In this document: positions 27,709 through 55,304 of the stretch, in pieces
Numbering within the stretch: position 1 is the stretch's first letter
How the letters are laid out: each line of letters opens with the position of its first letter
Virus record (IMG/VR): IMGVR_UViG_3300027917_000018
Span: 96,001-160,000 of that record
DNA from: a virus
Taxonomy: Duplodnaviria; Caudoviricetes
DNA length: 64,000 nt
Direction: 5' to 3' (one strand)
Program-made: the position numbers and the translations under genes
The notes under the pieces: generated by a model
The model's database searches: none
What the model was told of the DNA's origin: nothing
What the model saw: the letters and a program-made list of their open reading frames with translations, nothing else

Positions 27709-28278
27709 ATGCCAATTGTCAAAAACTTCACCCGGCAGGCCAGCAGTGCTGGCGGCGACCTCGTGCCCGTGCTCAAGAGCCTGGGCGGCGACCAGTTTGA
27801 TGAGCGCACGATGGAGCTGCGCAATTTCTTTGGCATCAAACTGACGACCACGGACGTTAATCGCAGCGGCGCGTCTACTCCGGTGGACGACCAGTTCACG
27901 GTGGCGCTCACGCAAGGTGTTCAGGTCATGCTGGAATATCGAATTGCCTGGACGCTTCCGGCGTCTCCGACTGCTACAGGCATTGAGTTTGGCTGGAATT
28001 TTCCGCTCTCTCCAGCCTTCACGGACGGCTACCAAATCAACTGGTATGAGTCGATCGCCGCAGGTGCCAGCACTATTGTAGGTCTTGTTTCCAATGGCGA
28101 GGGAGCGCCTGTGCCCATCTTTGCCAACACCACTGCCATTCGGAACAACGGCAGGTGGCACGTCGAGGGCTTCTTTGTTGTGACACCCACGTCGAGCGGC
28201 AACGCCGAATTCTTTTGGGGCAATTGCACGGATGTTACCCGCAGCGCGGGCAGCCACGTGCGCGTCACACCTGTATGA
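27709..28278 (+). CDS. beta-rich probable virion protein
   Basis: T/G/N-rich beta pattern. Confidence 0.5.
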   Translation: MPIVKNFTRQASSAGGDLVPVLKSLGGDQFDERTMELRNFFGIKLTTTDVNRSGASTPVDDQFTVALTQGVQVMLEYRIAWTLPASPTATGIEFGWNFPLSPAFTDGYQINWYESIAAGASTIVGLVSNGEGAPVPIFANTTAIRNNGRWHVEGFFVVTPTSSGNAEFFWGNCTDVTRSAGSHVRVTPV

Positions 28279-28610
28279 GTCGAGCCCGCGCCATCTTGGA
28301 AGCGGAGACGCCCAAGAGCGTTATGGCGGAGCTGCCATCGGATGAAATTGAAATCCGTTGTCACCTTCAGGACAATCGGCTTCACAGCGGGCGGGAGGTT
28401 TCCGATCCTGGCAGTCACTTTGACCGCGTGGTTGTTTCGGGCCGCGATTGGCCAAAGGTCGAGCAGCTTGGGCTTTGGCTGGAGCCCGACCCGGACGAGC
28501 GTGGCGTTTACTGGTGCGGCGACCTTTACGTCACCGAGCTGCAAGGTGCGCTTGACGATGCCGGGATCAAGCATGACTGGTGGGAAAGCGATCCCCTGGA
28601 GGACGAATGA
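28275..28610 (+). CDS. leader-bearing protein (MSRARAILEAETPK)
   Basis: True start ATG 28275 is ATGA-coupled. Confidence 0.75.
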   Translation: MSRARAILEAETPKSVMAELPSDEIEIRCHLQDNRLHSGREVSDPGSHFDRVVVSGRDWPKVEQLGLWLEPDPDERGVYWCGDLYVTELQGALDDAGIKHDWWESDPLEDE

Positions 28611-28945
28611 GCCGCGCCCGAGCCATCCTGGAGGCTGAGCCTCGCGACCTGATGCGCCGCGCCGCCCAGCGTGAGAAGGCCGAGGCAGGCAAGTGGCCGG
28701 TTCAACCCGGCGACAAGGGCTTCCTTTTCATTCTCGGCGAGAATCCGAACCTTTCTTTGAACGTCTACGCGCCGACCACCGCCCTGGCCGTCGAACGCTG
28801 CAATCAGGTTCTTAAGGAGCTGTTCCCCGACGGCTTGATGCACCGGAATGACCGCTGGGACACGACCTTTCATTTTGATTGGACGAAATTGGAGGCCAGG
28901 GACTCGGACATCTACGATGAGTGGGCGCTGGATGCTGAGCGGTGA
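28607..28945 (+). CDS. leader-bearing protein (MSRARAILEAEPR)
   Basis: ATG 28607 is ATGA-coupled. Confidence 0.75.
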   Translation: MSRARAILEAEPRDLMRRAAQREKAEAGKWPVQPGDKGFLFILGENPNLSLNVYAPTTALAVERCNQVLKELFPDGLMHRNDRWDTTFHFDWTKLEARDSDIYDEWALDAER

Positions 28946-29352
28946 TTGACGGACAGCTACTAAAGTGAAACGTTTTAGCAGATGGTTAGTATCAAACAGC
29001 GCGCCCTGGTGGCGTTGGTGCTGTTCGCCCGCCGCGAGAAGGCGCGGGCGCTTCGGGCCAAACATGCTTTGGCTCAGCAGGTAACGCGTGCATACGCCAG
29101 AAAAAAGATCAGGAAGTCATGGTACGTCCGTATCCGTGTTTGAGAAAGCGGATGAAGCTGCGGCAGCTTGCCATTCTGCGTCAGCAGCGGGCGGAGACGG
29201 CTATCCTCGAAAATCTTCCCAACTTCACCCGTGAAGAGATTGAAAGCCTGCGCGGTTTCTGTGTCCCTGTGGAAAAGCTGCGCAAGCTGTTGCTGGAGCA
29301 TTCTTGAAGAATTTTGTTTACGACATAAGCGTGCGGGCTTAAATTCGTTTAC

Positions 29353-31772: not shown

Positions 31773-32012
31773 CGTTTGGAAGTGCTGGACACGACAGATC
31801 AGCCGCTTCAAGCACGTGGAGCTGCAAGCCAGCCGATGGAAGCATTGGTGCTGGTTTTCTTTTGTTGCCGAGTGGACCAGGTGTCAGGACCACGCCGGGC
31901 TGCGGCTGGAGGCCGAGGTCCTGGGCTACAGCCTCATCTTCCTCATCTACGACCAACGTCATTGGGACCACGATCGCAACGATTGGAGCCGACTGCCCTA
32001 GTTCTTATAGGC

Positions 32013-34017: not shown

Positions 34018-34048
34018 GGTTTTACTGTTGACGGGTAGGTGCTACATT

Positions 34049-34516: not shown

Positions 34517-34735
34517 GTGAGCCGCGCTCGGTCCATTCTCAACGAAGTCACAGACGTTCCGTCCAGCTTTCCCCGCGACCGCACCACCAAGGTCAAGGCT
34601 GGGGACGGCTGGATTTACGTTCGCCCGGCGGGCAGTGGCTTCTATGTGACCGCCACTGGCATGAAGGGTGAGCAGGTGCCCGCCAAGGACATCCGGTGGT
34701 TCGTGCGCGAGCTTTACGCTTTCATGACCCAATAG
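34517..34735 (+). CDS. leader-bearing small protein (MSRARSILNEVT)
   Basis: Leader motif. Confidence 0.7.
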   Translation: MSRARSILNEVTDVPSSFPRDRTTKVKAGDGWIYVRPAGSGFYVTATGMKGEQVPAKDIRWFVRELYAFMTQ

Positions 34736-34743
34736 TTAAAGTG

Positions 34744-35511
34744 ATGGCTTCGCCGAGAGACATGCTGGCCAGGTCGCCGTTTACGGGCAGGCGCTTCGCA
34801 ACTGCCGACGGTTACACCTTCTACGAAAAGCGCGACGGCTCCTGGGTAGACAACCTGGACCCGGAGCGCGTCGACATGTCGTTCGGCAGCGAAGAGGAGG
34901 CCATCAGCGGGCTAGTCGACGCCGGTTACACGCCCGAGGAGGCCAAGCAGCTTATCGCTGGAACCTGGGAGCCCAGTCCCGAGGAGGAAGAAATTCTGCG
35001 GCAGTGGTTTCAGGGCGAAAGCATGGGCCGCGCCCGTGCGATCGTGGAAGAGGAAAGCCCGCGCTCGTTTCTCAAGAAAATTGGTGCTGACCCATTTGGC
35101 AGGGTGGCTATCCGCGTAGGTGCTCCGCTTAACCCTCAGACGGTTGTGGTGCCAGTTCACTGGGTTTACGACATGGTTTCGACCGGAGGCGATTCACTTC
35201 CAGGGGTTGTGCTTCACACTGGCGACGCGCCGCCCGCGCCCCAGGGAATGACCAAGCCGCAGTACTCCTGGATGCTGGCCGTGATCGCTTATGCGTTAAA
35301 CGAAGGTCCAGTGTTTCAGGAAGACCGCCCGAGGGACGATGCTGACCGCGAGATGGACCCGGAAGACGATATGTGGCTGCCGGATTTCAGCTGGGAATTC
35401 CTGGGCGGGGAGAAGGTCTTCGACCGGGCGATGGAATGGGCCATAGAGCATCCCGGCGAGCGCGCCGGTTATGAGTTCCCCAAAGGTTTCGACGGACCCG
35501 TCGTTGGCTAG
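34744..35511 (+). CDS. two-module protein with an internal full leader (MGRARAIVEEESPR at 35023)
   Basis: Starts MASPRDML; in-frame Met-leader mid-gene; TAGTTA at 34733-34738 upstream. Confidence 0.7.
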   Translation: MASPRDMLARSPFTGRRFATADGYTFYEKRDGSWVDNLDPERVDMSFGSEEEAISGLVDAGYTPEEAKQLIAGTWEPSPEEEEILRQWFQGESMGRARAIVEEESPRSFLKKIGADPFGRVAIRVGAPLNPQTVVVPVHWVYDMVSTGGDSLPGVVLHTGDAPPAPQGMTKPQYSWMLAVIAYALNEGPVFQEDRPRDDADREMDPEDDMWLPDFSWEFLGGEKVFDRAMEWAIEHPGERAGYEFPKGFDGPVVG

Positions 35512-36376: not shown

Positions 36377-36692
36377 CCGCCGTCAAATTGCGGTGTCGCT
36401 GCGGTCGTGGTGCGGGCACGGTGTAGGTCACGACGTTGGAAGGCTCGGACTCCAGCGCTGACGTGTTGTAGCAGGTCGCGTAGAACGCGTAGGTTCTGCC
36501 CGGTTCCAAAGCTTCGATCACGGTGTTGGTGACGTTGCCGCAGTCCTTGACGACCGTGTAGTTTCCAGGAGGCGATCCGTAATAAATCCGGTAGCCCGCA
36601 ACGTCCGGCTCCGGGTTCGGGTCCCAAGCCAGCATTACCGTGGCGGCATGCGTCATGGCCAGCGAGCAAAGGAGAAAAACGAGCGTTCTCAT
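36276..36692 (-). CDS. secreted fibronectin type III domain protein
   Basis: Signal peptide, then LAWDPNPEPDVAGYRIYYG..LEPGRTYAFYATCYN..ESEPSN. Confidence 0.8.
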   Translation of the reverse strand: MRTLVFLLCSLAMTHAATVMLAWDPNPEPDVAGYRIYYGSPPGNYTVVKDCGNVTNTVIEALEPGRTYAFYATCYNTSALESEPSNVVTYTVPAPRPQRHRNLTAAIRRSIRTAFPRHTATSWLSDRLNRLIAGILPS

Positions 36693-37933
36693 CGGAACGA
36701 ATAGAGCGTCGAGCGCCCAAAGCCTGGCTCGTCACGGTCGTAGCCGGTGTCTCTGACAAGACCACGCGCTGCCAGCCGCAGAAGCGCCCGCTCCATGTAA
36801 ACGTAACCCATACCGGTGGAATCGCGCCAGAAAAAGCGCTCGATGCCGCCGTTCTTGAGCTGGGTCAGAATGCTGATCAGGAAGCTTTCGCAGGCGGCGT
36901 CCCTGTAGGGTAAGTCGCTGTCCGCCCAATACACGGCGCTCAGAAACAACATTTCCCTGCCGCTCACCTTCTTCCAGAGCGTTGTCGCGGCAGCGAGCTT
37001 GTTGCGCTCGTTCCACTGGGTTACGGCGGGCTGCCCGCCCTCAACGTGCGTAGTCTTCCAGTCAAAGTTGGGCTGTGCGACCACCTGCAATCCTGCGCGC
37101 CGCAGCAAGGCGCGAGGGCTTACGGCCTCCACCAGGCCGAACACGGCCATGCCCGACCGGTTTGTCAGCCTGACGACGCCTTCCCGCGCCAAAGCTTCCA
37201 GCGCGTCCAAGAACGGATCGCCGGGTTTGAAGAGGCTGAAGAGGAATCTGCCGATACCGCGTGCCTTGGCCTGATCGAAGATGCTTTTGAGAAAAGCTTG
37301 TCGGAAGCTTGGGTCCAGTTCGTCCGGGCCGTCGGCGCGGATCACCAAGGTATCTCCGTCGTGGAAGCTCGTGCTGGCGAACGTATAGGGCTCATGGGTT
37401 TGCCAGACCGTGTCCTGGTAGCGGCTTCGCCGCCGGTACCAGTCTGCGTCGGCAGGCACGGCCATCGGCTTGCCGAATCCAGTCTTCAGCAGGCTCTTGG
37501 GGTCTTCGGCCTCCTCGACGTTTTCCTCCTCGTAGGGGACCAGCCGCCAATGAAATACGCCGGTCTGCTCCTCCCCGGTGGTGGAAACTTCGGCGGGAAT
37601 CCGCCAGGTCTCGGCCCCGGAGCGCTCGCCGCGCTTGAGCGCTTGCCAGACCTTTCGATCATAGTCGAAGATTTCCTCGAACTGCTCGCTTTCTACGTCG
37701 ACCGTGGTGCGATCGGCCAGGAAAGCGTGGACGCCGTACATGCCGTCAAGTTGATCGATGTCGCTGGCGTGGGAGCCGTGAATCTCCGGGTCACGCCCGA
37801 TCCGAAACGGCGTGTACTCGTCCAGCTCGATTGTGTTAACGTAGTAATAGCCAGGTAGGATGTGCTCCTGGCTCATGCGCTTAAGCCAGGCTCGCGGTGT
37901 TTCAGCTTCCAGAATGGCTCGTGCGCGGCCCAC
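36689..37933 (-). CDS. leader-bearing polyprotein with two similar alpha/beta (GNAT-like?) modules
   Basis: MGRARAILEAETPR; internal EAEDPKSLL and EAVSPRALL. Confidence 0.75.
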   Translation of the reverse strand: MGRARAILEAETPRAWLKRMSQEHILPGYYYVNTIELDEYTPFRIGRDPEIHGSHASDIDQLDGMYGVHAFLADRTTVDVESEQFEEIFDYDRKVWQALKRGERSGAETWRIPAEVSTTGEEQTGVFHWRLVPYEEENVEEAEDPKSLLKTGFGKPMAVPADADWYRRRSRYQDTVWQTHEPYTFASTSFHDGDTLVIRADGPDELDPSFRQAFLKSIFDQAKARGIGRFLFSLFKPGDPFLDALEALAREGVVRLTNRSGMAVFGLVEAVSPRALLRRAGLQVVAQPNFDWKTTHVEGGQPAVTQWNERNKLAAATTLWKKVSGREMLFLSAVYWADSDLPYRDAACESFLISILTQLKNGGIERFFWRDSTGMGYVYMERALLRLAARGLVRDTGYDRDEPGFGRSTLYSFR

Positions 37934-37935: not shown

Positions 37936-37954
37936 CTTAATTACGGTAGTTAGA
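37936..37954. promoter_or_regulatory. back-to-back GTARTTAR motifs (divergent)
   Basis: Minus strand GTAATTAAG (hexamer 4 nt before GTG 37933); plus strand GTAGTTAGA (hexamer 5 nt before ATG 37958). Confidence 0.6.
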
Positions 37955-37957: not shown

Positions 37958-38359
37958 ATGAACGCTGAGACGGAAGGCCGATGGTCGAAGGCTGTAGGGA
38001 CGATGCGCGAGCTGATGAAACAGCACGTTCAGGCTCACGCAAAAGTCCGGGAACTGTACTTCTCGATCCTTTACCACGCTGAGCTGGAGAAAGCTGGCCT
38101 CAAGAAAGACCAGGTCTCCTACCTGGTCCACGGGGCCAATCTGCCTGCGGGTGGCAAGTTCAGTCGGCAGCAGATGGCCAGGGCCTACCCGGATTGGGCG
38201 TTCGGCGTGAAGCTCAAGCCGACCGAGGGCGAGACCGAGGGCAAGATCGTGTGGTTCGAGAATCCGATTCCGCCCAAGGAGAAGCTCCACATCGAGGACC
38301 TGGAGACGCCCGCTCAGCGACAAGAACGTTTACGAATCAAGAGCCTTGGCTTGGAATGA
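37958..38359 (+). CDS. hypothetical protein
   Basis: ATG 37958 follows the motif. Confidence 0.6.
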   Translation: MNAETEGRWSKAVGTMRELMKQHVQAHAKVRELYFSILYHAELEKAGLKKDQVSYLVHGANLPAGGKFSRQQMARAYPDWAFGVKLKPTEGETEGKIVWFENPIPPKEKLHIEDLETPAQRQERLRIKSLGLE

Positions 38360-38517
38360 GCTTAGCCCGTGACATCCTGGAGGCCGAATCGCCTCGTGCC
38401 TTTATGAAGAGGCTGCCGATCCACCAGCTGGAGCGGCTCGGCGTGTGGAAGGTCCGGCGCACGCCACGGATGCCCGACCCGGACGACGATTCCGGCGATG
38501 CTTGGGCACATTTATGA
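38356..38517 (+). CDS. 53-aa leader-bearing peptide (MSLARDILEAESPR)
   Basis: ATGA-coupled on both sides. Confidence 0.65.
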   Translation: MSLARDILEAESPRAFMKRLPIHQLERLGVWKVRRTPRMPDPDDDSGDAWAHL

Positions 38518-40625
38518 GCGCGGCCCGTAACATCCTGGATGCTGAGACGCCGCGCTTTGTTCTCAAGGCGCTAGGCCGCCGCACGCTCGGCGTTTCGACC
38601 AAGCTGCTGCGCTCCTATCTGCGCCAGGAGGGCTTTCCGGTCGTTCAGCTTTACCGGCGCAGCAACAAGTGGCAGGACGCGATTGAAATGACAATCGTGG
38701 CCAGCGACCCCACGCTCCGCACCGACGCCGTGCTCTACGAGGTTATGGCCAGGGTCGAGAATTGGCTTGAGCAGAACTACCCCAAACTCGCGCCTCTCTT
38801 GTCCGTGAACGGCTGGGTTGCGCTTTGGCGTGACCAGAACAGCTTTGAGATTTCGATTACCAACCAGTACCGAGAGCAGACAGAAGCTCTGGAAAGCCCG
38901 GCCTCCGTACTGCACCAGATCGCGACCAACACGGTCATGGCCAAGCACGCGGACTTTCGGCAAGTCGCGGACGACGTGTGGCTCCTGGACGCGGGGAACT
39001 TTCAGGCCGAGGCTCGGGTCAAGCAGTCCGCGCAGGGCCGCCAGTGGGACCTTGCGATCTTTACGGTGACACACGGACCGTACCGGCGTACGCCCCAGGC
39101 AAGCTGGAACAATCTTACGGATCGCCAGTTCGCGATGGTGATGACGAACGTTTTTGGGGTGGCCGAGGCGGTGGACCCGCGCTCGCTTCTGCGAAAGCTG
39201 TACGACCCATCCGACCCGGTCGTTTCGGCCCTCGTCAAGATAGGCTTTCAGAAGGTGCCCGGCGGCCCGGAGAAGCGGCATCGGTTTGAGCTGCGGCGCG
39301 GCAATCGCACGTACGATCTTTGGTGGTACTGGGACGCGGCTCCGGGCGGCGGCAGGGAGCGTCGGTGGGACTTCGACGTGTGGGAAGATAATCCCGGTGG
39401 CGGCAAAGAACTGGTGGGCAACCACAATTCCATAGGCGACGGGCTTATTGCGAGGCTGCTCGGCAGCGGCTACGGCCTTTTGCCAGAATCCAGGAAACTC
39501 ATCGAGCAGGAGACTGAATCGCCGCGAGGCTTCCTTAACCGGCTCAGGCGGGAGCGCCTGTACTTCGGACAGCGGTTCGAGCGCGTGCCCTTTGGTGCCC
39601 GATGGGGCATGAACGCTCACGTTCGTAGGCTTTCCGACGATGGCGAGCCTGAAGTATTTGTTCAGCCGTCGGCCAGCTCCAGGCCGGTGCCGCTAGACCT
39701 GCAAGCATCTTTGGAAGTGGCTCAGCTGAGCCCGACGGGGTTTGAGTGGGGCTACGGCGGGAGCGGCCCGCATCAGCTTGCCCTGGCCCTTCTTTTGGAC
39801 GTGACCAGCGATCCCCAGCGGGCGTACCACGCACACCACGCCTTTACGGCAAGCGTCATTGCGCACTTGCCGCGCAAGGAATGGACGCTGACCTCCAGGA
39901 GGATTCTGAGCTGGCTGTCTGCCTGGGAAAACACGGGCGTCAAGGAAGCCGTCAGTCCCAGGGAGCTTTTGGTGCCCAGGGCCGCGCACGCGGTCGGGCA
40001 TTGGCTGGCCAGTTTGAAGTTCCACAAGGTCGGCGATGCCTGGCAAAGGTTTTGGCACGGGCATGCGCAAATGGACGTGGAGCCCCAAGGCCAGGACAAG
40101 TGGAAAGTGACGGTTTGGCGCTTGCCGAGCCCAACGGCTTTCGGCTTGCGCCTGCGCCGCAAGCTGCGCGCAACCAGCACCGTGCCGCTCGGGGCTGTGC
40201 CCCAGGTTGTGCAAAAGTGGGTCAAGGAGCTGAGTGTCGAGCAGGACCCTGAGCTTGCCGAGGCCGCCGAGACACCGCGATCCGTGCTTAAGGCATTGCC
40301 CAAGTTCGACGAGGACACGGAGGTCACGCTGCGTTGGCTGCGCCATGTGGTCGGCCAGCACATCGTTCGGCAGGTTGACATCGTGAGCGAAAGGCCAGAT
40401 TTCCAGCATACCGACGCCCGCCTTTACGTGATCATTGAGGTCAGCCAGGGCTACCAACGACAGCCGCTCCTCCGGCGCTACTGGGTCGATTTTGCCAGCC
40501 GGGGTGTGCTGGCCCAGGCGCTGCGCCAATGGGCCAACCTGCAAGGGGCTAAGCTCCGCGTGGACGGCCAGGACGCTGGCAAGGTCGCATACCGTAATCC
40601 CGTTTTGGCAAAACTTGCCGCATGA
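38514..40625 (+). CDS. leader-bearing six-module polyprotein including a DUF6166-like domain
   Basis: MSAARNILDAETPR; linkers at 38883, 39165, 39510, 39945, 40260; FEWGYGGSGPHQLALALL. Confidence 0.8.
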   Translation: MSAARNILDAETPRFVLKALGRRTLGVSTKLLRSYLRQEGFPVVQLYRRSNKWQDAIEMTIVASDPTLRTDAVLYEVMARVENWLEQNYPKLAPLLSVNGWVALWRDQNSFEISITNQYREQTEALESPASVLHQIATNTVMAKHADFRQVADDVWLLDAGNFQAEARVKQSAQGRQWDLAIFTVTHGPYRRTPQASWNNLTDRQFAMVMTNVFGVAEAVDPRSLLRKLYDPSDPVVSALVKIGFQKVPGGPEKRHRFELRRGNRTYDLWWYWDAAPGGGRERRWDFDVWEDNPGGGKELVGNHNSIGDGLIARLLGSGYGLLPESRKLIEQETESPRGFLNRLRRERLYFGQRFERVPFGARWGMNAHVRRLSDDGEPEVFVQPSASSRPVPLDLQASLEVAQLSPTGFEWGYGGSGPHQLALALLLDVTSDPQRAYHAHHAFTASVIAHLPRKEWTLTSRRILSWLSAWENTGVKEAVSPRELLVPRAAHAVGHWLASLKFHKVGDAWQRFWHGHAQMDVEPQGQDKWKVTVWRLPSPTAFGLRLRRKLRATSTVPLGAVPQVVQKWVKELSVEQDPELAEAAETPRSVLKALPKFDEDTEVTLRWLRHVVGQHIVRQVDIVSERPDFQHTDARLYVIIEVSQGYQRQPLLRRYWVDFASRGVLAQALRQWANLQGAKLRVDGQDAGKVAYRNPVLAKLAA

Positions 40626-41437
40626 GCCGCGCCTTACAGCTTATTCTTGCCGAGGCCCGCCGCAAGCCGGAGAGCCCGAAGTCCATAATGAAGGCGATCG
40701 GCAACCCGGACATCGCAAGCCTGCTGGAGTACGCGCCCGAGGACTTTCGTAGAGCCTATTACGCCAAGCAGACCGCCGAGTGGGACCCGGATTTTGCCGC
40801 TGAGGCCGATTGGAGCCCGTCGCCCGGCGATCATTACGAGGATGAGGAGACCGGCGAGGAGCGTGTGGAGTGGTGGCGCACGGCCTATTATCCGGTTTAC
40901 CGGACCGAAGACGGCAAGATTTACGAGGAAGTCCATTCGGTGGACGGGGACGGCAACCACGAGTACGAGGTCGAGGCCGAGGTTGGCACCGACGAATGGC
41001 GGCGGCAGCAAAGGGATTGGTACCAAGCGCCGCAAAGGCTGTGGAAGGACTACTGGGAATACGTGGCCGAGACCGGGGACGACGCTTTGGGCGAAATCTT
41101 CGTGCCCCGTGAGAAGACCACGCACAAGTGGGTCGCCGGATTTACGCAAGAGCCCGATGGCAGGCTCAAGTTTTGGGGTGCCCGCCCAATTGGGCGCGAG
41201 CAGAGCCACCCGCCGATCCGTAATCTTGACGAGGTCCCGCAGCACGTGAAGGACTATCTCCTCGTTGATCAGGATGGGTACAGCGAGGCTACACTGGATG
41301 ACCTGAAGCGGGAGAACGGCAAACAGGACAAGCAAGGCCGGTGGCAGGTTTGGTTCACCACCGAGCAAGAGAAGGAGCCTGAGAACGTCGTGGATTTCAT
41401 CAAGCGCAAGGCCCGCGAGCAGTTGGAGAGGCAATGA
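40622..41437 (+). CDS. leader-variant acidic protein (MSRALQLILAEARRKPESPK)
   Basis: Leader variant; W/Y/E-rich. Confidence 0.7.
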   Translation: MSRALQLILAEARRKPESPKSIMKAIGNPDIASLLEYAPEDFRRAYYAKQTAEWDPDFAAEADWSPSPGDHYEDEETGEERVEWWRTAYYPVYRTEDGKIYEEVHSVDGDGNHEYEVEAEVGTDEWRRQQRDWYQAPQRLWKDYWEYVAETGDDALGEIFVPREKTTHKWVAGFTQEPDGRLKFWGARPIGREQSHPPIRNLDEVPQHVKDYLLVDQDGYSEATLDDLKRENGKQDKQGRWQVWFTTEQEKEPENVVDFIKRKAREQLERQ

Positions 41438-41715
41438 GCAGAGCACGCCAGATCATCGAGGCCGCCGAGACACCGCGATCCGTAATTTCGGCGATCCGTA
41501 AAACCAGGTTTGAGCTTGGCATCCAGGACATCATGCGCGACGCCAAAGAGCTGGAGGCTAGGCTGGAGAAATCCGGGGTCATGAACCTCATGGGCTGGTT
41601 TGACGATTCCGCCGTGGCGCAGGCGATCATGCAACTGGCGATCGAGCGGCGAGGCGCTCCCGGCACGAAGCGGGCGCTTTCAGCCATCAAACGGCACGGA
41701 CACTCAGTTTTGTGA
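41434..41715 (+). CDS. leader-bearing protein (MSRARQIIEAAETPR)
   Basis: Leader motif, coupled. Confidence 0.7.
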   Translation: MSRARQIIEAAETPRSVISAIRKTRFELGIQDIMRDAKELEARLEKSGVMNLMGWFDDSAVAQAIMQLAIERRGAPGTKRALSAIKRHGHSVL

Positions 41716-42710
41716 CGCGAGCAAGAGCCATCCTGGAAGTCGAGACGACACGAACCGGCAAGTTCGTGTCCGCCGTATTGACGCGGGCCAGCCAGGATGA
41801 GCTGCTGGATGCCTTTCCGCCCATCCATCCCAACGTTTACGCGCACCATGCCACGCTGGCGTTCAAGCCCACGGAGCCCGCGCTGGACCGGTACGTGCCC
41901 TACCTGGGCGAGCGGCTTTACCTGTCGGTGATTGGCTACGGCGAAGACGACAAGGGCCAGGCCGTCGTGGTGGACGTTCAGAGCGAGAACCGCATCCCGC
42001 ACATTACCATTTCGACCGCCGACGGCGTTGGCCCGGTCTACTCGAACAAGCTCCTGGAGGCTGGCTACGAGACCGTGGACGGGCCAGAACTGGAAGCTTT
42101 GGTGGACATCGAGAACCTCGGGGAATCAGTTCTGGAGCTGGACCCGCAAGGTGGGTTGCGCCTGACGCCCAGGCCCAAAAAGCCAGGCTCCATCTGGACT
42201 TACCGCCGCCAGGCAGCCGAGGGCGGCCCAAAGCCCTACCGCCGAGTCCGAAGCTTGCCCAGCGGCGGCCAGGTTGAAATCTACGCCGCCTACCACAAGC
42301 AGGCCGCTCCGCTAGAGCTGTTGCGCCAGGCTAAGCAGTATGGACCTCTGGTCGGTAAGATGGCGCGGGCGGGCGCGGATGACCTGACTGCTGCTTTGGA
42401 GGGATACGGCATCACCGAGGTCGTGCCGATTCCAAGCCGGAGCCCAATGGCGGGCCGGTTCGCCCGGCTTCTGGCCAATCGCTTGGGCGTGCCGATCCGT
42501 GATCGTTTGCAGCGGGACTATCCGATCGGCCACGTGCCCATCCATCTGAGAAAAGCTGTGGCCCAGCGCACCATTTCAGCCACGGGACGCCCGCGCCACC
42601 CGCTGCTGGTGGACGAGTACGTCACCACCGGGGCAACCATCATGGCCGCCGCCGAGGCGCTTTTACGGCAGGGAGCCCGGCAGGTCACCGCAGCCGCTTT
42701 TGCGATATGA
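41712..42710 (+). CDS. leader-bearing 2H phosphoesterase plus ComF-like phosphoribosyltransferase fusion
   Basis: HHATLAF and PHITIS 2H motifs; LGESVLE linker; LLVDEYVTTGAT PRPP-binding loop. Confidence 0.8.
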   Translation: MTRARAILEVETTRTGKFVSAVLTRASQDELLDAFPPIHPNVYAHHATLAFKPTEPALDRYVPYLGERLYLSVIGYGEDDKGQAVVVDVQSENRIPHITISTADGVGPVYSNKLLEAGYETVDGPELEALVDIENLGESVLELDPQGGLRLTPRPKKPGSIWTYRRQAAEGGPKPYRRVRSLPSGGQVEIYAAYHKQAAPLELLRQAKQYGPLVGKMARAGADDLTAALEGYGITEVVPIPSRSPMAGRFARLLANRLGVPIRDRLQRDYPIGHVPIHLRKAVAQRTISATGRPRHPLLVDEYVTTGATIMAAAEALLRQGARQVTAAAFAI

Positions 42711-43003
42711 GCCGAGCCCGCGCAATTTTGGAGGCTGAGACTCCCAAGGGCATCATGCAGCAGTTTAGTCCGGGCAGCCGGTTCATCATGCAGCCTTTAA
42801 GCCCGCAGGAGATTGAAACGCTTGCCGATGTCATCGCGATGGGACCGCTGACGCGGCAGCCCTGGCACGAGAAGTTCCTCGAACTGGGGTACCTGACGCT
42901 CTACGACGACATGCCCGATGCCGTGGAGGCCGCCGATGGGTTTGCCAAAGCGTTCTACGACAAGAATGGCTTCATTCGCCAGGGCTGGCTTCAGCAGCGC
43001 TAG
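42707..43003 (+). CDS. leader-bearing protein (MSRARAILEAETPK)
   Basis: Leader motif, coupled. Confidence 0.7.
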   Translation: MSRARAILEAETPKGIMQQFSPGSRFIMQPLSPQEIETLADVIAMGPLTRQPWHEKFLELGYLTLYDDMPDAVEAADGFAKAFYDKNGFIRQGWLQQR

Positions 43004-47696: not shown

Positions 47697-47697
47697 T

Positions 47698-50092: not shown

Positions 50093-50093
50093 C

Positions 50094-51436: not shown

Positions 51437-51823
51437 ATGAATACGACAAAAGCACTGAAATGGGCGGTTTTTTGCGTGTTGACTCTTCCCGTGCTCCTAT
51501 TCGCGCAGGACGAGACCCCACTCGCCGAGCTGCCTAAAAGCACGCAGGAGTTTTGGGTCCTGGGCATCGCTGTTGTTTCCCCGCTGATCGTTCAGGGGAT
51601 CAAGTGGGCGGTTCCCAAGATTCCGAAGCTTCTGCTACCAAGCGTCACACCCTTCATCGGCATGGCTTTGGGCTATGGGCTGAATGCCCTGGGCACGGCT
51701 GACCTGGGATGGGTGGATGCTGCGCAAGCGGGCGCTCTGGCCGTCTTCGTTCGCGAGGTCGTCAACCAAGCGGTGAAGTCTCGGCAGGCGGCTGACACAC
51801 CGGCCCAGCCTCCTTCTGGCTAG
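51437..51823 (+). CDS. holin-like membrane protein
   Basis: Three to four hydrophobic segments, charged C-tail. Confidence 0.5.
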   Translation: MNTTKALKWAVFCVLTLPVLLFAQDETPLAELPKSTQEFWVLGIAVVSPLIVQGIKWAVPKIPKLLLPSVTPFIGMALGYGLNALGTADLGWVDAAQAGALAVFVREVVNQAVKSRQAADTPAQPPSG

Positions 51824-52853
51824 GGATTTCAACTGAACCTTCATCCTCCCCTGCGGGTGGCTCATCCGCAGGGGATTTTCGTTTACGGTCTGTTCGGTTC
51901 AATTCATCGGCGAGGCTGTACTGCCTGATCTTGTTGTAAAGCGTTTGTCGCCCGATCCGCAGCCGCTGCGCTGCGTGCTTGATGTTGCCGTGGCAGCCTT
52001 GGATGGCCTCGATGATAAGCCTGCGCTCCGCCAGCTCAATCGGCCCCAGTGTATGGCCCTGTTCCGCCTTTTCCTGCGCCGTTTTGTCGAGGGCAGCCTG
52101 GGCGACCGGAGGGCTGAATCCGTCGGGCGGTAGGGAGTGTCGGTAGCCCAAAGCCAGCACGCGTTGTATTTCGTTCTCCAACTGCCGGACGTTGCCAGGC
52201 CATTCGTAAGCCAGTAGAGCTTCCTTGGCTTCCTTACCGAGGTAGACGGGTTCGGTAACAGCCTGTTCCTTAGCGTACCAATTGAGAAACGTTTCGGCCA
52301 GGGGCAGAATGTCATTTCTTCGATTGCGCAGCCGGGGCAGAAAAAGCGTGACGGCACCGATGCGGTAGTAAAGGTCAGGACGTAAACGTTTTTGTTCGAG
52401 CAGCATTTCTGGCAGGTTGCTCACGGCGCAAATCAGCCGAAAGTTAATGGCGTCCTCCTTGGTGCTCCCGACGCGTCGGACTTTCCTTTCCTGAAGGACC
52501 CGCAGCAGCTTTGACTGTGCTCCCAGCGGCATTTCGCTCAGCTCGTCCAGGAAGAGGGTGCCGCCATCCGCTGCCCCGATCAGGCCCGTGCGGTCGTTGC
52601 TGGCCCCAGTGTAGGCACCACGGGCCGCGCCGAACAGCTCGCTCTCGACGAGGTCTTTGGGCAATGCCGCGCAGTTGACACAGATCATCGGCTGTTTGCG
52701 CCGAGGGCTGTTCTCATGGATATGGCGTGCAACGACTTCCTTGCCCGTTCCGGTCTCGCCGCAGAGCAGGATGGGAATGCCGCTGGCAGCAATCTGGTTG
52801 CAGGTGGCTACCAGAGCTTGCATTGCTGAACTGGCGAATACGGGCTTGTACAT
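51762..52853 (-). CDS. sigma54-dependent enhancer-binding protein (AAA+ plus Fis HTH, no N-terminal sensor)
   Basis: GETGTGKE, ESELFG, GAYTGA, GGTLFLDE, RPDLYYR, WPGNVRQL, HAAQRLRIGRQTLYNKI. Confidence 0.92.
   Translation of the reverse strand: MYKPVFASSAMQALVATCNQIAASGIPILLCGETGTGKEVVARHIHENSPRRKQPMICVNCAALPKDLVESELFGAARGAYTGASNDRTGLIGAADGGTLFLDELSEMPLGAQSKLLRVLQERKVRRVGSTKEDAINFRLICAVSNLPEMLLEQKRLRPDLYYRIGAVTLFLPRLRNRRNDILPLAETFLNWYAKEQAVTEPVYLGKEAKEALLAYEWPGNVRQLENEIQRVLALGYRHSLPPDGFSPPVAQAALDKTAQEKAEQGHTLGPIELAERRLIIEAIQGCHGNIKHAAQRLRIGRQTLYNKIRQYSLADELNRTDRKRKSPADEPPAGEDEGSVEIPSQKEAGPVCQPPAETSPLG
51847..51879 (+). terminator. intrinsic terminator
   Basis: TCCCCTGCGG / CCGCAGGGGA stem followed by TTTT. 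Confidence 0.65.
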
Positions 52854-52860: not shown

Positions 52861-53313
52861 ATGATACCGCGAGACGTTTTCTACGATCGACTCGGCAAGC
52901 ACTGCCAGCAGTGTGAGCACTGGGCCAACGTCTGCCTTAAGGGCCATGCGTCCAGCTCGCCGGAGGGCTGCCCGATCTACAAGTTTCCGCCGATCCAGGG
53001 AGCCCAATACGCGTCCGTGCGCGAAGCCCCGTCGCCACCGGCCTTCGCCAATTGCTGCGGTAACACTATCCAAGAACTGGAACCGTTAACCTGGCCGCAA
53101 GTTTTGGCGCATTTTGCCGAATCCATGACGAAGTGGATCGCGTCGGGAATGAAGGTCGTCAAGAAGGACACGCACATGAGCCGCTACGGCACCTGCAAGC
53201 TCAACACGTGCGGGGAATTCCGGGATTTCTACTGCCACCACTGTAAGTGCATCGCTTACTGCAAGGCCAAGCTGGCGACGGAAACGTGCCCGAAGAAGCT
53301 CTGGCCTACATGA
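52861..53313 (+). CDS. Cys-rich protein (DUF6171-like C-terminus)
   Basis: CQQC..C..CP; CHHCKC..KAKL..ETCPKKLW. Confidence 0.6.
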   Translation: MIPRDVFYDRLGKHCQQCEHWANVCLKGHASSSPEGCPIYKFPPIQGAQYASVREAPSPPAFANCCGNTIQELEPLTWPQVLAHFAESMTKWIASGMKVVKKDTHMSRYGTCKLNTCGEFRDFYCHHCKCIAYCKAKLATETCPKKLWPT

Positions 53314-54061
53314 CTTCGAGCTGGGTGCCGTCTTCCGTCGGGCTGATGTAGATTTCGCCGTAGGAATGAGCAGCTGCCGTGAGCCGCTCGCCCGCCTCTT
53401 CATCGTCCGTGAAATCGCCATCCCAAAAGCCAGCGCCGTGGCCGTTGCGGGTTAGCCAGAAGTCGTGCCCGGCCCGTGACGGATCGCCTTCGATGTCCCG
53501 CCAGTTTTTCTTCCAGAAGTCTTCGCATTCAGCCCGGAGCGTCTCTCGGGCCGCGTCGGTGAAGTCCCCGGTGTCGTAATCACGGTCCAGTGGGTGGCCG
53601 TGGCCTTCAGGGTCAACGGCGTCGTTGTTGCTGCTCCAGATGGCTGTCTCCAAGTATTGCTCGAAGAATTCTTCGGGCATTTCGGGCACGTGCGGGGCGT
53701 GCTTTTTGAGAAACTCACGGGGCGTTTCGGCCTCTACGACATCGCTGATTTCCCCGACGCCATGTCCGGTTGAGCTGACGAGAAAGATTTTGTTTACAGA
53801 AGGGCCTATAAGCCTTGGGTAGCCAAGCGGCTTGCCTAAGAGATTGTGGGCAATGCTCTTGGCGTCCTTGTAATCTCGTGTCGACCCATTGTCCGGCGTT
53901 CCACGGCCCCAATACCAGTGGGGTATGCCGTAGGTCCAGTAATAGGGAGTGCCTTCAGCCACACCGACCAGGAAAAACCGTGGATTGCGAAACTTGTGCT
54001 TGAGCAAGTCCCTGGGCGATTCCCCGGCCAATCCGTCGATGATAGCCCGTGCCCGGCTCAT
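53306..54061 (-). CDS. leader-bearing two-module protein; C-module with AGHDFWLTRNGHGAGFWD
   Basis: True start 54061 (MSRARAIIDGLAGESPR); internal EAETPREFL at 53734. Confidence 0.75.
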   Translation of the reverse strand: MSRARAIIDGLAGESPRDLLKHKFRNPRFFLVGVAEGTPYYWTYGIPHWYWGRGTPDNGSTRDYKDAKSIAHNLLGKPLGYPRLIGPSVNKIFLVSSTGHGVGEISDVVEAETPREFLKKHAPHVPEMPEEFFEQYLETAIWSSNNDAVDPEGHGHPLDRDYDTGDFTDAARETLRAECEDFWKKNWRDIEGDPSRAGHDFWLTRNGHGAGFWDGDFTDDEEAGERLTAAAHSYGEIYISPTEDGTQLEVM

Positions 54062-55068
54062 AGGTCGCGCTCCCGCTTTACGTCGTGGGCGTAGTAGTCC
54101 AGCTTGAAGCCCATCTTTTGCGCCAGCCGCCACGGCGCTTCTTCGCGGGTCTCTGGCGGAAGGTAGCCCCTGTGGCGCAGCCAGTCGAAGGCGCGGGTCA
54201 GGTAGTGGTCGCCGTAGCCTCCGGCCATCGGGAGCGTGTGAACCAACTCGCCGTTTACATAAATGTCCGCCGTGTTGTAGGTGTTGCCATAGGTTCGGCG
54301 AAACCACCGCCTGCCGATGACGGCGACTTCGCGCAGGACAAAGTGCTTTTTCAGAAGGTCGCGGGCCGACACCGCCTCCTGTTGGGGCCTGGGCGGCAGT
54401 AGCGGCGCAAAGATGTTTACGAACTGCTCCTTCGGGAGAAGCCGCGACATCATGCTCATCAGGTCATAAATGTCGCCCAGCGGGATTGGCTTTTCGCCGG
54501 ATATGTCGTACCAGACCTTGTCCTTTTTCTCCCAAAAAGAGCCGCCGGATGGCAGATCGATGCGCCGCCCGGTCCATTCAGTCTTGCGCTTGAAAAACTC
54601 ACGAGGATTCACGGCCTCGACGACTTTGGGCCTGGTCTGCTCACGCGGCCAGAGCACGATGCGCCATTCACGAGGCCCGGCTACGCCGTCCACCCTACCG
54701 CTTCGCTGGCCTTTGCTGGCGTTGGGATACATTTTTGAGGTGTACCTGTGCATTTCGTCGGCGATGACCTGCTCTTCCTCATCCGTGAAATCCAGCAAGT
54801 CGGGATGGTTGGGATACCGCTGGAAGGTCTGCTCGAAGCCTAAAGCGTCTTCCACATCGTTGAGCAAACCGTACTCGCCGTCTTGTGGGAACACCGAGCC
54901 GTCGTCCCCAATGCCGACGGGCACGTATTCGGTCTGGTCATCGTCCATCATCGGCGGCTTACGGATCGCCAGATAGTAGCCTTCTCCGCCAGGTGGCAGC
55001 AGACGCGGCAGCCGCTTGATAATGGATCGCGGGCTCTCAGCCTCAATGATGTCGCGTGCCCGGCTCAT
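54058..55068 (-). CDS. leader-bearing three-module polyprotein
   Basis: MSRARDIIEAESPR; EAVNPREFF (54618), EAVSARDLL (54378). Confidence 0.75.
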   Translation of the reverse strand: MSRARDIIEAESPRSIIKRLPRLLPPGGEGYYLAIRKPPMMDDDQTEYVPVGIGDDGSVFPQDGEYGLLNDVEDALGFEQTFQRYPNHPDLLDFTDEEEQVIADEMHRYTSKMYPNASKGQRSGRVDGVAGPREWRIVLWPREQTRPKVVEAVNPREFFKRKTEWTGRRIDLPSGGSFWEKKDKVWYDISGEKPIPLGDIYDLMSMMSRLLPKEQFVNIFAPLLPPRPQQEAVSARDLLKKHFVLREVAVIGRRWFRRTYGNTYNTADIYVNGELVHTLPMAGGYGDHYLTRAFDWLRHRGYLPPETREEAPWRLAQKMGFKLDYYAHDVKRERDL

Positions 55069-55304
55069 TTTTGAGCGTAAGCCTTTTTGATCGCGTCCGG
55101 CGGATCGGCGGCCATGAGGCGCATGGTGCTGCCATCGTCGAAGGTGACGATGTGCATGACTTCGGGCATCAAGTCCGAAGCGGGCGTGTTGGGCTGGGCG
55201 ACCTCGGCGCTTACGGGCCGCCTGGCGCGGCGGGCCGCCTGGCTAAAGCGCTTGATTTTGTCCCGAGCGGACTCAGCCTCCAGGATGGTGCGCGCACGGC
55301 TCAT
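55065..55304 (-). CDS. leader-bearing small protein (MSRARTILEAESAR)
   Basis: ATG 55304 overlaps the upstream stop. Confidence 0.7.
   Translation of the reverse strand: MSRARTILEAESARDKIKRFSQAARRARRPVSAEVAQPNTPASDLMPEVMHIVTFDDGSTMRLMAADPPDAIKKAYAQK

What the first reader, a model, noticed from the sequence alone, without database searches (positions are those of the whole stretch)
28275..55304. Shared N-terminal leader MSRARxILEAE[ST]P[RK] on 14 unrelated coding segments: candidate capsid-targeting/protease signal
Seen: a near-identical 13-15 aa leader begins the ORFs at 28275, 28607, 34517, 37933(-), 38356, 38514, 40622 (variant), 41434, 41712, 42707, 54061(-), 55068(-) and 55304(-), and occurs internally at 35023. 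The sequences after the leader are unrelated to each other. The genes are mostly ATGA-coupled and sit in three clusters on both strands. Known: T4 internal proteins carry a ~10-aa capsid-targeting sequence (IPIII MKTYQEFIAE) that the gp21 prohead protease removes after an (I/L)-x-E site, and giant phiKZ-like phages also process head proteins after Glu. Inference: this is an expanded, phage-specific address label that loads many cargo proteins into the head for cleavage after ILE/EAE and ejection with the DNA. Its size and heterogeneity exceed the few T4 IPs.
Basis: partly seen in the sequence, partly recalled or inferred. Interest (0 to 1): 0.92.

Follow-up and report, generated by a model that had tools for sequence, protein, structure and literature searches.

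The report
Shared capsid-loading tag on phage proteins
An uncultured 203-kb T4-like phage puts the same ~20-residue N-terminal tag, which ends in the cutting site of its T4-type head protease, on about 20 otherwise unrelated proteins and repeats half of it between the domains of larger ones. Most likely it loads a library of proteins into the capsid for delivery with the DNA, as T4 does with its three internal proteins.

Summary
The tag MSRARAILEAE[ST]PRxxLK[KR] begins 13 ORFs and lies inside a 14th. It is conserved as a peptide, not as DNA, and a regex for it gives 13 hits against 0-1 in shuffled genomes.

New findings here:
- The tag has two halves. An N-terminal helix ends in [ILV]-x-E. A second half, (A-x-[ST]-P-R-x-x-L-K-K), also recurs at domain junctions inside five multi-module proteins, mostly preceded by [LIV]-x-E.
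- The genome encodes a T4 gp21-family prohead protease and a gp23-like capsid protein. Both carry L-x-E sites where T4 is cut.
- All six related phages examined (capsid protein 68-82% identical) carry the same kind of tag in their own sequence version. Four of six cargo matches in relatives wear the relative's version, which points to co-evolution with a shared receptor.
- Modules that follow internal sites here are stand-alone tagged genes in relatives.
- Most tagged operons start with the TAGTTA motif that also heads the sheath, portal, baseplate-hub and neck genes; the capsid gene has CAGTTAC.

Best reading (about 0.55): a T4-type capsid-targeting and processing signal, enlarged to a cargo library with polyprotein members. 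Packaging and cleavage are inferred, not shown. This scan has already found similar tags in other uncultured T4-like phages.

The parts
28275..28610 (+). Leader gene (111 aa). Leader MSRARAILEAETPKSVM at 28275-28325. ATGA-coupled to the upstream gene.
   Evidence: 40.5 bits
28607..28945 (+). Leader gene (112 aa). Leader MSRARAILEAE-PRDLMRR.
   Evidence: 31.9 bits
25121..27262 (+). Multi-module protein with a NUDIX domain (aa 186-295). Internal leader-type sites are VLNEVTPRELLSR (26057-26113) and ISPRELLRK (26636-26692). It lies in the TAGTTA-headed operon that runs on to 28945.
   Evidence: The G1 homologue starts with a leader-like helix.
27259..27705 (+). Gene with a loose leader variant, MSDVVRRMLGESVWDPPKGMV.
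   Evidence: Weak, pattern only.
34517..34735 (+). Leader gene (72 aa), first half only (VSRARSILNE). TAGTTA lies 4 nt before the GTG start.
34741..35511 (+). Two-module protein. It starts VMASPRDMLAR (second half only, TAGTTA 2 nt upstream) and has a full internal leader MGRARAIVEEESPRSFLKK at 35023-35085.
   Evidence: (39.6 bits)
36689..37933 (-). Three-module protein (414 aa). N-terminal leader VGRARAILEAETPRAWLKR. Junction sites are NVEEAEDPKSLLK (37475-37531) and LVEAVSPRALLRR (37091-37147). TAATTAA lies 3 nt before the start. The modules look weakly GNAT-like.
38356..38517 (+). Smallest leader gene (53 aa): MSLARDILEAESPRAFMKRL.
   Evidence: 42.2 bits
38514..40625 (+). Six-module protein (703 aa; modules of 123, 94, 115, 145, 105 and 120 aa). 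N-terminal leader MSAARNILDAETPRFVLK. Junction sites are at 38883-38912, 39147-39203, 39492-39548, 39927-39983 and 40245-40301. DUF6166 fills the module between the third and fourth junction sites.
   Evidence: The last module is a stand-alone leader gene in relative G2.
40622..41437 (+). Leader-variant gene (271 aa, acidic): MSRALQLILAEARRKPESPKSIMK.
41434..41715 (+). Leader gene (93 aa): MSRARQIIEAAETPRSVI.
   Evidence: 37.1 bits. The G1 homologue carries the G1-type leader.
41712..42710 (+). Leader gene (332 aa), first half only (VTRARAILEVE). The cargo is a 2H-phosphoesterase-like domain plus a phosphoribosyltransferase domain.
   Evidence: In the near relative L133 it starts ATG MRARAILEVE. 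The G6 homologue starts MNAQNVVKQMLE.
42707..43003 (+). Leader gene (98 aa): MSRARAILEAETPKGIM.
   Evidence: 42.3 bits. An 84%-identical relative has MSRARQIVENETPK.
53306..54061 (-). Two-module protein (251 aa). Leader MSRARAIIDGLAGESPRDLLK. Junction site VVEAETPREFLKK (53696-53752), followed by a phrog_1915 domain.
   Evidence: The second module is a stand-alone leader gene in G1 and G7.
54058..55068 (-). Three-module protein (336 aa). Leader MSRARDIIEAESPRSIIKR. Junction sites are VVEAVNPREFFKR (54580-54636) and QQEAVSARDLLKK (54340-54396). The last module is phrog_6246.
   Evidence: The last module is a stand-alone leader gene in G6.
55065..55304 (-). Leader gene (79 aa): MSRARTILEAESARDKIKR.
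   Evidence: 39.6 bits
22889..22894 (+). TAGTTA motif 8 nt before the first gene of the operon 22903-28945, which ends in two leader genes.
37947..37952 (+). TAGTTA motif 5 nt before gene 37958, which heads the coupled chain 37958-43003 with six leader genes. The divergent TAATTAA at 37937-37943 (-) heads gene 37933(-).

Best explanation
The leader is a T4-type capsid-targeting and processing signal, enlarged into a cargo-loading system. The N-terminal amphipathic stretch (M-S-R-A-R-A-I-L-E) docks the newly made protein onto the prohead core. The phage's gp21-family protease then cuts after the Glu of [ILV]-x-E. The same site, with the conserved second half (A-x-[ST]-P-R-x-x-L-K-K), sits at each domain junction of the multi-module proteins. 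Those would therefore be cut into single ~95-145-aa modules inside the head. The freed proteins, which include NUDIX, 2H-phosphoesterase/PRTase, DUF6166, phrog_1915 and many orphans, stay with the DNA and enter the host with it, probably as take-over or anti-defence factors. Shown here: the motif, its peptide-level conservation, its two-part anatomy, the protease and capsid genes, the clade-wide genome-specific variants, the module-to-gene correspondence, and the shared start-proximal motif. Inferred: docking, cleavage, packaging, ejection and what the cargo does.
For: (1) The genome has a Peptidase_S77 protease (73.8 bits) and a Gp23-family capsid protein (94 bits). (2) T4 gp21 cuts after L/I-x-E, and T4 internal proteins use 10-19-aa N-terminal propeptides as capsid-targeting sequences (PMC9026906, PMC3012670). 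T4 N-termini read here are gp21 MNEPQLLIE, gp22 MLKEQLIAE, gp24 MAKINELLRE and IPII/IPIII MKTYQEFIAE. The leader here is MSRARAILE followed by AE, so Glu falls at residue 9 with Ile at P3. (3) The protease N-terminus carries L-x-E at residues 4-9 in all seven clade genomes. The capsid protein has conserved AIMLE|N (L at P2, M at P3) and LDE|V sites 36-47 residues before the LQPM landmark, against 50 in T4. (4) Each of the six relatives carries N-terminal A-[KRH]-x-[LIV]-[VI]-x-x-L-[LVM]-E leaders in its own version. Counts against the reversed-sequence control are 25 vs 0 in G1, 15 vs 2 in G6 and 10 vs 2 in G2. (5) In four of six cargo matches, the homologue wears the leader version of its own genome, not that of its orthologue. 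That fits co-evolution with a genome-encoded receptor. (6) Three of three junction-delimited modules that have homologues are stand-alone leader genes in relatives. Of the 12 internal sites found, 8 have Glu three residues before the [ST]/D/N and 6 of those also have V or L at P3. In a G1-type polyprotein all five copies follow L-x-E. (7) TAGTTA lies within 17 nt upstream of an ORF start (mostly 2-8 nt) in 31 of 37 occurrences, against 29% for permuted hexamers. It heads the sheath, portal, baseplate-hub, neck and tail-fibre genes, with the variant CAGTTAC before the capsid gene, and it also heads most of the leader operons. (8) The prohead-core gene just upstream of the protease starts with a leader-like MNKSAIVAKLLGEAE in G0 and MKNNWIGKVLGED in G1.
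Against: There is no direct evidence of packaging or cleavage: the phage is uncultured and has no virion proteome. The strongly conserved residues downstream of the Glu (P1' to about P10') go beyond what the short gp21 motif requires, and they are unexplained. Four of the 12 internal sites lack the Glu or the hydrophobic P3 (for example QQEAVSAR and KPISPRELL). Several cargo domains are enzymes that could equally act in the infected cell without being packaged. The complex prediction of the protease with a leader peptide gave no answer. Cargo turnover is only modestly higher than the genome average: 5 of 12 leader genes have a homologue in a relative, against 137 of 238 other genes. The minus-strand cluster 53306-55310 has no TAGTTA upstream.
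Confidence: 0.55

Rival explanations
1. The N-terminal leader is a capsid-targeting propeptide, but the internal copies are only scars of gene fusions between leader-cargo cassettes, or flexible linkers. On this reading they are not cut, and the multi-module proteins are packaged whole.
For: Modules after internal sites are stand-alone leader genes in relatives, so fusion certainly happened. Some internal sites have lost Glu or the P3 residue. T4 Alt and the N4 virion RNA polymerase are packaged as large proteins (PMC5512222).
Against: The internal copies keep the second half, and mostly the [LIV]-x-E, as well as the N-terminal copies do. They have lost the first five residues, which is the pattern expected if targeting is needed once per protein and cutting at each junction. 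The same arrangement is seen independently in G1-type proteins.
Confidence: 0.2
2. The leader is a docking or recognition peptide for some other shared partner and has nothing to do with the capsid. Candidates are a modifying enzyme, a chaperone, a host factor, or a compartment or secretion route.
For: An earlier case in this scan (e1-127136) showed that a shared phage tag can track a radical-SAM enzyme instead of the capsid. The conserved [ST]-P-[RK] looks like a possible modification site. Part of the cargo is enzymatic.
Against: The Ser/Thr is replaced by Asp/Asn in the G1 and G6 versions, so phosphorylation is not conserved. No enzyme gene was seen to accompany the leader genes, which are scattered over several loci. 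The one invariant feature across the clade is the hydrophobic-x-Glu site, which matches the encoded protease. No leader protein has a signal-peptide-like hydrophobic core.
Confidence: 0.15
3. The leader is a small structural or regulatory N-terminal element with no addressing role, for example a helical hairpin for oligomerisation or a translation or stability element, spread by duplication and recombination.
For: The low-confidence AlphaFold2 model draws two short helices at the leader and again at the junction (pLDDT 36.5, not reliable).
Against: Synonymous sites are randomised and the upstream DNA differs, which rules out an RNA or DNA element. The cargo proteins are unrelated, so simple duplication does not explain the spread. 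Genome-specific concerted change of the leader on orthologous cargo needs a shared interacting partner.
Confidence: 0.1

Closest known systems
Phage T4 capsid-targeting sequences (CTS) on internal proteins IPI, IPII, IPIII and Alt, removed by prohead protease gp21 (Mullaney & Black 1996; reviews PMC9026906, PMC3012670)
   Same: Both are short N-terminal peptides ending in hydrophobic-x-Glu followed by Ala. Both sit on mutually unrelated, poorly conserved proteins in a phage that encodes a gp21-family protease and a gp23-family capsid protein. The N-termini of the protease and core proteins have the same form. The T4 literature already proposes the CTS as the way T4-like phages recruit varied proteins into the head.
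   Different: About 20-28 carriers per genome, against 3-4 in T4. The leader is about 20 residues and has two parts, with a strongly conserved stretch after the presumed cut. That second part recurs at domain junctions of multi-module proteins. There is no sequence similarity to MKTYQEFIAE beyond the pattern. The cargo includes recognisable enzyme domains rather than small basic proteins. Nothing has been tested experimentally.
Head, inner-body and ejection proteins of giant phages phiKZ, 201phi2-1 and SPN3US, processed by gp21-related proteases (PMC9026906, PMC5694885, PMC10052503)
   Same: These are large phages that package many proteins. Cleavage follows Glu, propeptides carry several cleavage sites, and the products are ejected with the DNA.
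   Different: Here P3 is I/L/V, as in T4. Those proteins form paralogous families and do not share one common leader on unrelated cargo. The head genes here are of the T4 gp23/gp21 type.
Polyvalent proteins of phages and conjugative elements (Iyer, Burroughs, Anand, de Souza, Aravind 2017; PMC5512222)
   Same: Several unrelated effector-like domains lie in one polypeptide that is predicted to be packaged and delivered with the DNA, possibly after proteolytic release of the domains.
   Different: Polyvalent proteins are recognised by characteristic domains (zincin-like MPTase, ArdC-N, primases, methylases) and by self-processing peptidase domains. None of these was found here. Here the junctions carry a repeated linear motif that matches the head protease.
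CTS-like shared leaders noted earlier in this scan in other uncultured T4-like or giant phages (e1-3862018, e1-1066390, e1-5320617, e1-4036318)
   Same: These are the same kind of observation with the same inference: many unrelated proteins share an N-terminal tag ending in hydrophobic-x-Glu.
   Different: The sequence and the phage clade differ. The two-part structure, the junction copies in polyproteins and the genome-by-genome concerted change documented here were not part of those short notes as I saw them.

Membership tests
T4-type capsid-targeting propeptide (CTS) cargo | Short peptide at the extreme N-terminus of the protein (10-19 residues in T4) | tested here: met
   13 copies begin at the start codon. 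In the library search, about 30 of 36 genuine G1-type hits start at residue 1.
T4-type capsid-targeting propeptide (CTS) cargo | Ends in the gp21 cleavage motif L/I-x-E followed by a small residue | tested here: met
   I-L-E|A in most copies. Glu 9 and Ile 7 are invariant in alignment A1. The T4 comparison was read from NC_000866. The motif definition is from PMC9026906.
T4-type capsid-targeting propeptide (CTS) cargo | The same genome encodes a gp21-family prohead protease and a processed gp23-type capsid protein | tested here: met
   PF03420 at 73.8 bits and PF07068 at 94 bits. L-x-E sites are conserved in both proteins across seven genomes. Five further relatives also have the protease.
T4-type capsid-targeting propeptide (CTS) cargo | Carried by mutually unrelated, poorly conserved proteins | tested here: met
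   No similarity between cargo proteins apart from the motif copies. Different Pfam/PHROG domains or none. 5 of 12 have a homologue in any of six relatives.
T4-type capsid-targeting propeptide (CTS) cargo | The peptide is necessary and sufficient for incorporation into the prohead core and is removed there | not testable with these tools
   The phage is uncultured and has no proteome. The complex prediction gave no answer.
T4-type capsid-targeting propeptide (CTS) cargo | Sequence relatedness to the T4 CTS MKTYQEFIAE | tested here: not met
   Only the pattern (length, hydrophobic-x-Glu-Ala) is shared. The leader is therefore an analogue or a very distant relative, not a recognisable homologue.
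Polyvalent proteins (Iyer et al. 2017) | Signature domains such as MPTase/zincin peptidase, ArdC-N, ParB, primase or methylase in one polypeptide | tested here: not met
   Pfam finds only NUDIX, DUF6166 and weak PRTase/2H hits in the window proteins. It finds nothing in 36 G1-type leader proteins.
phiKZ-type head protein processing | Cleavage motif with a small residue (S/A/G) at P3 before Glu, as recalled from the phiKZ literature (not read in the papers here), plus phiKZ-like head genes | tested here: not met
   P3 is I/L/V in the leader and at most junctions. The head genes match the T4 families.

The most novel reading that the evidence does not exclude
A clade of uncultured ~200-kb T4-like phages uses a two-part, genome-specific address label. 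Its first half targets the protein to the prohead core. Its second half, together with the preceding hydrophobic-x-Glu, is a portable cutting cassette. Leader-cargo cassettes can therefore be fused into polyproteins and cut apart again inside the head. That would give each phage an exchangeable library of 30 or more injected protein modules, with a label that co-evolves with the head core.
Probability: 0.4. Interest if true: 0.8.

Novelty: new variant of a known kind. Interest (0 to 1): 0.62.

Why it matters
If the reading is right, roughly a tenth of this phage's genes encode proteins that travel inside the capsid. That is far beyond the handful known for T4, and the leader becomes a sequence-only way to list them. 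Injected proteins act before any phage gene is expressed, so this list is a natural place to look for new anti-defence and host take-over activities; most of the modules here are orphans. The junction motif would be a compact natural example of a virion-internal polyprotein. The genome-specific versions of the label offer a test bed for how a targeting signal and its receptor co-evolve. The T4 CTS is already used to load foreign proteins into capsids (PMC3012670), so a second, orthogonal label with a built-in release site could be useful in the same way.

Tried and rejected
- DNA-level repeat, promoter or recombination site inside the leader: rejected. Synonymous sites are randomised and the upstream DNA is not conserved.
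- Exact back-translated leader pattern in IMG/VR: 0 hits outside this genome. A profile of the G0 leader on five relatives through the genome search found only two weak matches in G5 and none in the other four, and my own scan also found nothing. The relatives turned out to carry their own versions.
- A single mixed G0+G1 profile did not bridge the versions well.
- The search for homologous proteins with two leader genes returned only the same proteins and one 84% relative.
- Complex prediction of the protease domain (aa 1-215) with residues 1-45 of gene 55068(-): no answer, score 0.00. This is evidence neither for nor against binding.
- AlphaFold2 of gene 54061(-) without an alignment: mean pLDDT 36.5, unusable.
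- ESM Atlas search for gene 37933(-): only weak GNAT-like structural neighbours, TM about 0.3. Treated as a lead only.
- Pfam on 36 G1-type leader proteins: no family.
- No paper mentions DUF6166.
- Phosphorylation of [ST]-P-[RK] as the conserved function: rejected, because relatives have Asp/Asn there.
- Antisense 'MSRARLI' matches (for example genome +150980 and +177070) are the reverse-complement reading of real leaders, not extra copies.

Full report
WHAT THE WINDOW IS. The window is bases 96001-160000 of a single 202,975-bp IMG/VR virus contig with GC 0.60 and a CheckV completeness estimate of 89%. The genome encodes a T4 gp21-family prohead protease (Pfam Peptidase_S77, 73.8 bits). The protease domain sits in a 554-aa ORF at genome 17334-18998, whose C-terminal two thirds are an acidic, coiled-coil, scaffold-like region. 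Directly downstream, at 19041-20498, lies a gp23-family major capsid protein (94 bits). PHROG matches identify a tail sheath, a baseplate hub, a portal, a neck adaptor and a tail fibre. No cultured phage has a capsid protein more than about 29% identical. IMG/VR does hold 60 contigs with capsid proteins 64-84% identical (best segment), several of them 200-240 kb long. The thing is therefore an uncultured clade of T4-like jumbo phages.

- A regex for the first ten residues hits 13 times in the genome, all inside the window. It hits 0-1 times in 20 triplet-shuffled genomes and 0 times in the reversed sequence.
- A profile built from 12 copies scores them 32-42 bits.
- The conservation is on the peptide. 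Arg is written CGA, CGC, CGG, CGT and AGA, and Ala is written with all four codons. Codon identity among identical residues is 0.37, against 0.26-0.40 expected from codon usage. The 30 nt upstream of the starts are unrelated.
- With the leader removed, the proteins share nothing detectable except further copies of the motif.
- Recognisable cargo domains are NUDIX, DUF6166, a weak 2H-phosphoesterase plus phosphoribosyltransferase pair, phrog_1915 and phrog_6246. The rest are orphans.

THE LEADER HAS TWO PARTS.
- The first part, M-S-R-A-R-A-I-L-E, occurs only at N-termini.
- The second part, A-E-[ST]-P-R-x-x-[LFM]-K-[KR], follows it there. It also recurs inside five ORFs, at intervals of about 80-195 residues: 25121-27262, 34741-35511, 36689-37933(-), 38514-40625, and 53306-54061(-) with 54058-55068(-).
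- The 703-aa ORF 38514-40625 is divided into six modules of 123, 94, 115, 145, 105 and 120 aa. The DUF6166 match fills one module.
- Of the 12 internal sites, 8 have Glu three residues before the [ST]/D/N. Six of those also have V or L two residues further upstream (VVE|AE, LVE|AV, VAE|AV, VKE|AV, VVE|AV, VEE|AE). That gives the sites the form [LIV]-x-E followed by Ala.
- Further copies lie outside the window. One longer form is ARQLARAVLE-(acidic)-NPRDFLKK at 175-178 kb and 182.5 kb. Others are at 28.7, 31.9 and 200 kb.

COMPARISON WITH T4.
- According to the reviews, gp21 cuts after L/I-x-E. Virion proteins have 7-65-residue propeptides. The 10-19-residue propeptides of the internal proteins are the capsid-targeting sequences. 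Residues 4 and 7 matter for targeting and residues 8 and 10 for processing. The internal proteins of T-even phages are diverse defence-related proteins that share only the CTS (PMC9026906, PMC3012670).
- I read the T4 N-termini from NC_000866: gp21 MNEPQLLIE, gp22 MLKEQLIAE, gp24 MAKINELLRE, gp67 MEGLIEA, IPII/IPIII MKTYQEFIAE followed by A, and gp23 ...FLTE followed by AEIGG.
- The leader here places Glu at residue 9 with Ile at P3 and Ala at P1'.
- The protease of this clade begins MQQLLEG (G0), MRQYLVEG (G1), MARQYLAEG (G2), MRQYLIEG (G6) and AKQLLYET (G7). This matches the LIE-9 of T4 gp21.
- The capsid protein has conserved AIMLE|N (L at P2, M at P3) and LDE|V sites 36-47 residues before the LQPM landmark, where T4 has its cut 50 residues before VQPM.
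- The prohead-core gene just upstream of the protease starts with a leader-like MNKSAIVAKLLGEAE in G0 and MKNNWIGKVLGED in G1.

THE RELATIVES GIVE THE STRONGEST EVIDENCE. I fetched six related genomes in whole or in large part: G1, G2, G4, G5, G6 and G7, with capsid proteins 68-82% identical.
- None carries the G0 leader. Each has its own version of the same design at N-termini. G1 has M-N-A-K-Q-L-V-N-R-L-L-E-V-G-P-D-E-V-D-P-[KR]-x-Y-L on at least 19-28 ORFs. G6 has A-[HKQ]-x-[IV]-V-x-x-[LM]-L-E. G2 has ...LLEDDDESWKDLV. G5 and G7 have A-R-x-x-[IL]-D-x-L-[IV]-E.
- Counts of the loose pattern at start codons against the reversed-sequence control are 25 vs 0 (G1), 15 vs 2 (G6), 10 vs 2 (G2), 13 vs 1 (G0), 9 vs 1 (G5) and 7 vs 5 (G7, weak).
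- The longer G0 form ARQLARAVLE...NPRDFLKK aligns residue for residue with the G1 form AKQLVNRLLE...DPKDYLKK. The versions are therefore homologous, and the common G0 form is a shortened one.
- In G1 the second half also recurs inside large ORFs, each time after [LIV]-x-E (IKE|AL-DPD, VRE|AI-DPD, VTE|TL-DPD).
- A profile of the G1 version, run against 1.84 billion representative proteins, gave 43 hits at E <= 0.001. About 36 are genuine, and about 30 of those start at residue 1. One 510-aa protein has five copies, each after L-x-E. None of the 36 has a Pfam domain.
- An 84%-identical relative of gene 42707 has the leader MSRARQIVENETPK. Its PRTase neighbour starts ATG MRARAILEVE, which confirms that GTG start in G0.

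LEADER FOLLOWS GENOME, NOT CARGO. Of the six cargo matches to relatives, four homologues wear that relative's leader version, one (the NUDIX protein in G1) begins with a loose leader-like helix, and one (34517 against G6) shows no recognisable leader.
- Gene 41434 has MSRARQIIEAAETPR, while its G1 homologue has MTARVVVDTLLETGPDEFNPR.
- Gene 41712 has VTRARAILEVE, while its G6 homologue has MNAQNVVKQMLE, and the cargo alignment starts right after it.
- The phrog_1915 module is similarly matched in G1 and G7.

This concerted, genome-specific change on orthologous cargo is what a signal read by a genome-encoded receptor should show. It is hard to explain for a passive structural element.

MODULES ARE CASSETTES. 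Three modules that follow internal sites in G0 have homologues in relatives: the last module of 38514-40625, the last module of 54058-55068(-), and the second module of 53306-54061(-). In all three cases the homologue is a separate gene that starts with that genome's N-terminal leader. The G0 multi-module proteins are therefore fusions of leader-cargo cassettes. The fusions have kept the hydrophobic-x-Glu and the second half of the leader at the joint and have lost the first five residues. That is the pattern expected if targeting is needed once per polypeptide and cutting is needed at each joint. It does not prove cutting.

EXPRESSION CONTEXT.
- The hexamer TAGTTA is followed within 17 nt (mostly 2-8 nt) by the start of an ORF of 40 aa or more in 31 of 37 occurrences. 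Permuted hexamers give 29%.
- It heads the tail sheath, portal, baseplate hub, neck adaptor, tail fibre and a prohead-core gene, and the close variant CAGTTAC heads the capsid gene.
- It also heads the operons that contain most of the leader genes. TAGTTA at 22889 heads the chain 22903-28945. TAGTTA at 37947 heads the chain 37958-43003. Genes 34517, 34741 and 37933(-) have it or its variant TAATTAA, as do genome 28756(-), 182454 and 200053.
- Whether it is a late promoter for leaderless mRNAs, as an earlier first-reader note proposed, or a translation signal, it ties the leader operons to the virion genes.
- The minus-strand cluster 53306-55310 lacks it.

WHAT REMAINS UNEXPLAINED OR WEAK.
- The conserved stretch after the presumed cut (through about P10') is more than gp21 is known to need. 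Its role is open: an exosite, a site-exposing element, or a function of the mature N-terminus.
- Some internal sites are degenerate.
- Cargo turnover is only modestly above the genome average: 5 of 12 against 137 of 238 genes with a homologue in a relative.
- The complex prediction and the single-sequence fold were uninformative.

VERDICT.
I put a T4-type capsid-targeting and processing signal with cut junctions at about 0.55. The same signal without junction cleavage is at 0.2, a non-capsid docking peptide at 0.15, and other explanations at 0.1.
- In kind it is known: the T4 CTS, and this scan has met similar tags in other uncultured T4-like phages.
- The two-part label, the polyprotein junction copies, the scale of about 20-28 carriers per genome, and the documented genome-by-genome co-variation make it a new variant of that kind.

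Noticed in passing
window 51762-52853 (-): The phage encodes a sigma-54 enhancer-binding protein. It has the Sigma54_activat AAA+ domain (208.7 bits), a lid domain and a Fis-type HTH, but no receiver or sensor domain. This is unusual for a phage and may take part in its transcription programme.
   Followed up: partly
genome-wide, e.g. window 22889, 34507, 34733, 37947, 43448, 50827; genome 15815, 44198, 68068; variant CAGTTAC at genome 19030 before the capsid gene: The hexamer TAGTTA and close variants sit mostly 2-8 nt before start codons: 31 of 37 occurrences are followed by an ORF start within 17 nt, against 29% for permuted hexamers. TAGTTA heads the sheath, portal, baseplate-hub, neck and fibre genes, and the variant CAGTTAC heads the capsid gene. 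It is a candidate late promoter for leaderless mRNAs or an unusual translation signal.
   Followed up: partly
window 31983-33128, 34028-34513, 35597-36376: Three enzyme genes without a leader lie between the leader clusters: a cytidylyltransferase-like protein with a long C-terminal extension, a circularly permuted YpsA SLOG protein (166 bits), and a weak PAPS-reductase-like protein. They probably act in nucleotide or DNA modification.
   Followed up: no
L001:1417-3081 (genome 17334-18998, outside the window): The prohead protease domain is fused to a ~350-aa acidic, coiled-coil, scaffold-like C-terminal region. This looks like gp21 and gp22 in one polypeptide, and the fusion is conserved in the relatives, whose ORFs are 521-634 aa.
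   Followed up: partly
window 44430-50816 (+): A run of tail-fibre-like genes. They contain repeated ...ALETAW(A/T)GT... heptad-like motifs, a Gly-rich beta-helix-like 765-aa protein, and a LamG/concanavalin-like domain in 48078-49349.
   Followed up: no
window 43000-44332 and 50840-51346: Several small ORFs have lipoprotein-type signal peptides (for example ...LLAGCTT and ...FTTGCRT). TAGTTA lies just upstream of the ORFs at 43458 and 50840.
   Followed up: no
opposite strand of each leader, e.g. window 38337-38462 (-), genome +150980, +177070: The reverse complement of the leader DNA reads ...SRMSRA(R/K)LI in one frame. This mimics the leader and gives false weak profile hits. It is a caution for motif scans, not a feature.
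   Followed up: yes
L135 (JGI contig, 8 kb): In another member of the clade, three genes with the G1-type leader lie next to a homologue of window gene 61324-61653 and a 985-aa protein. Here the leader genes appear to sit inside a tail or baseplate module.
   Followed up: no
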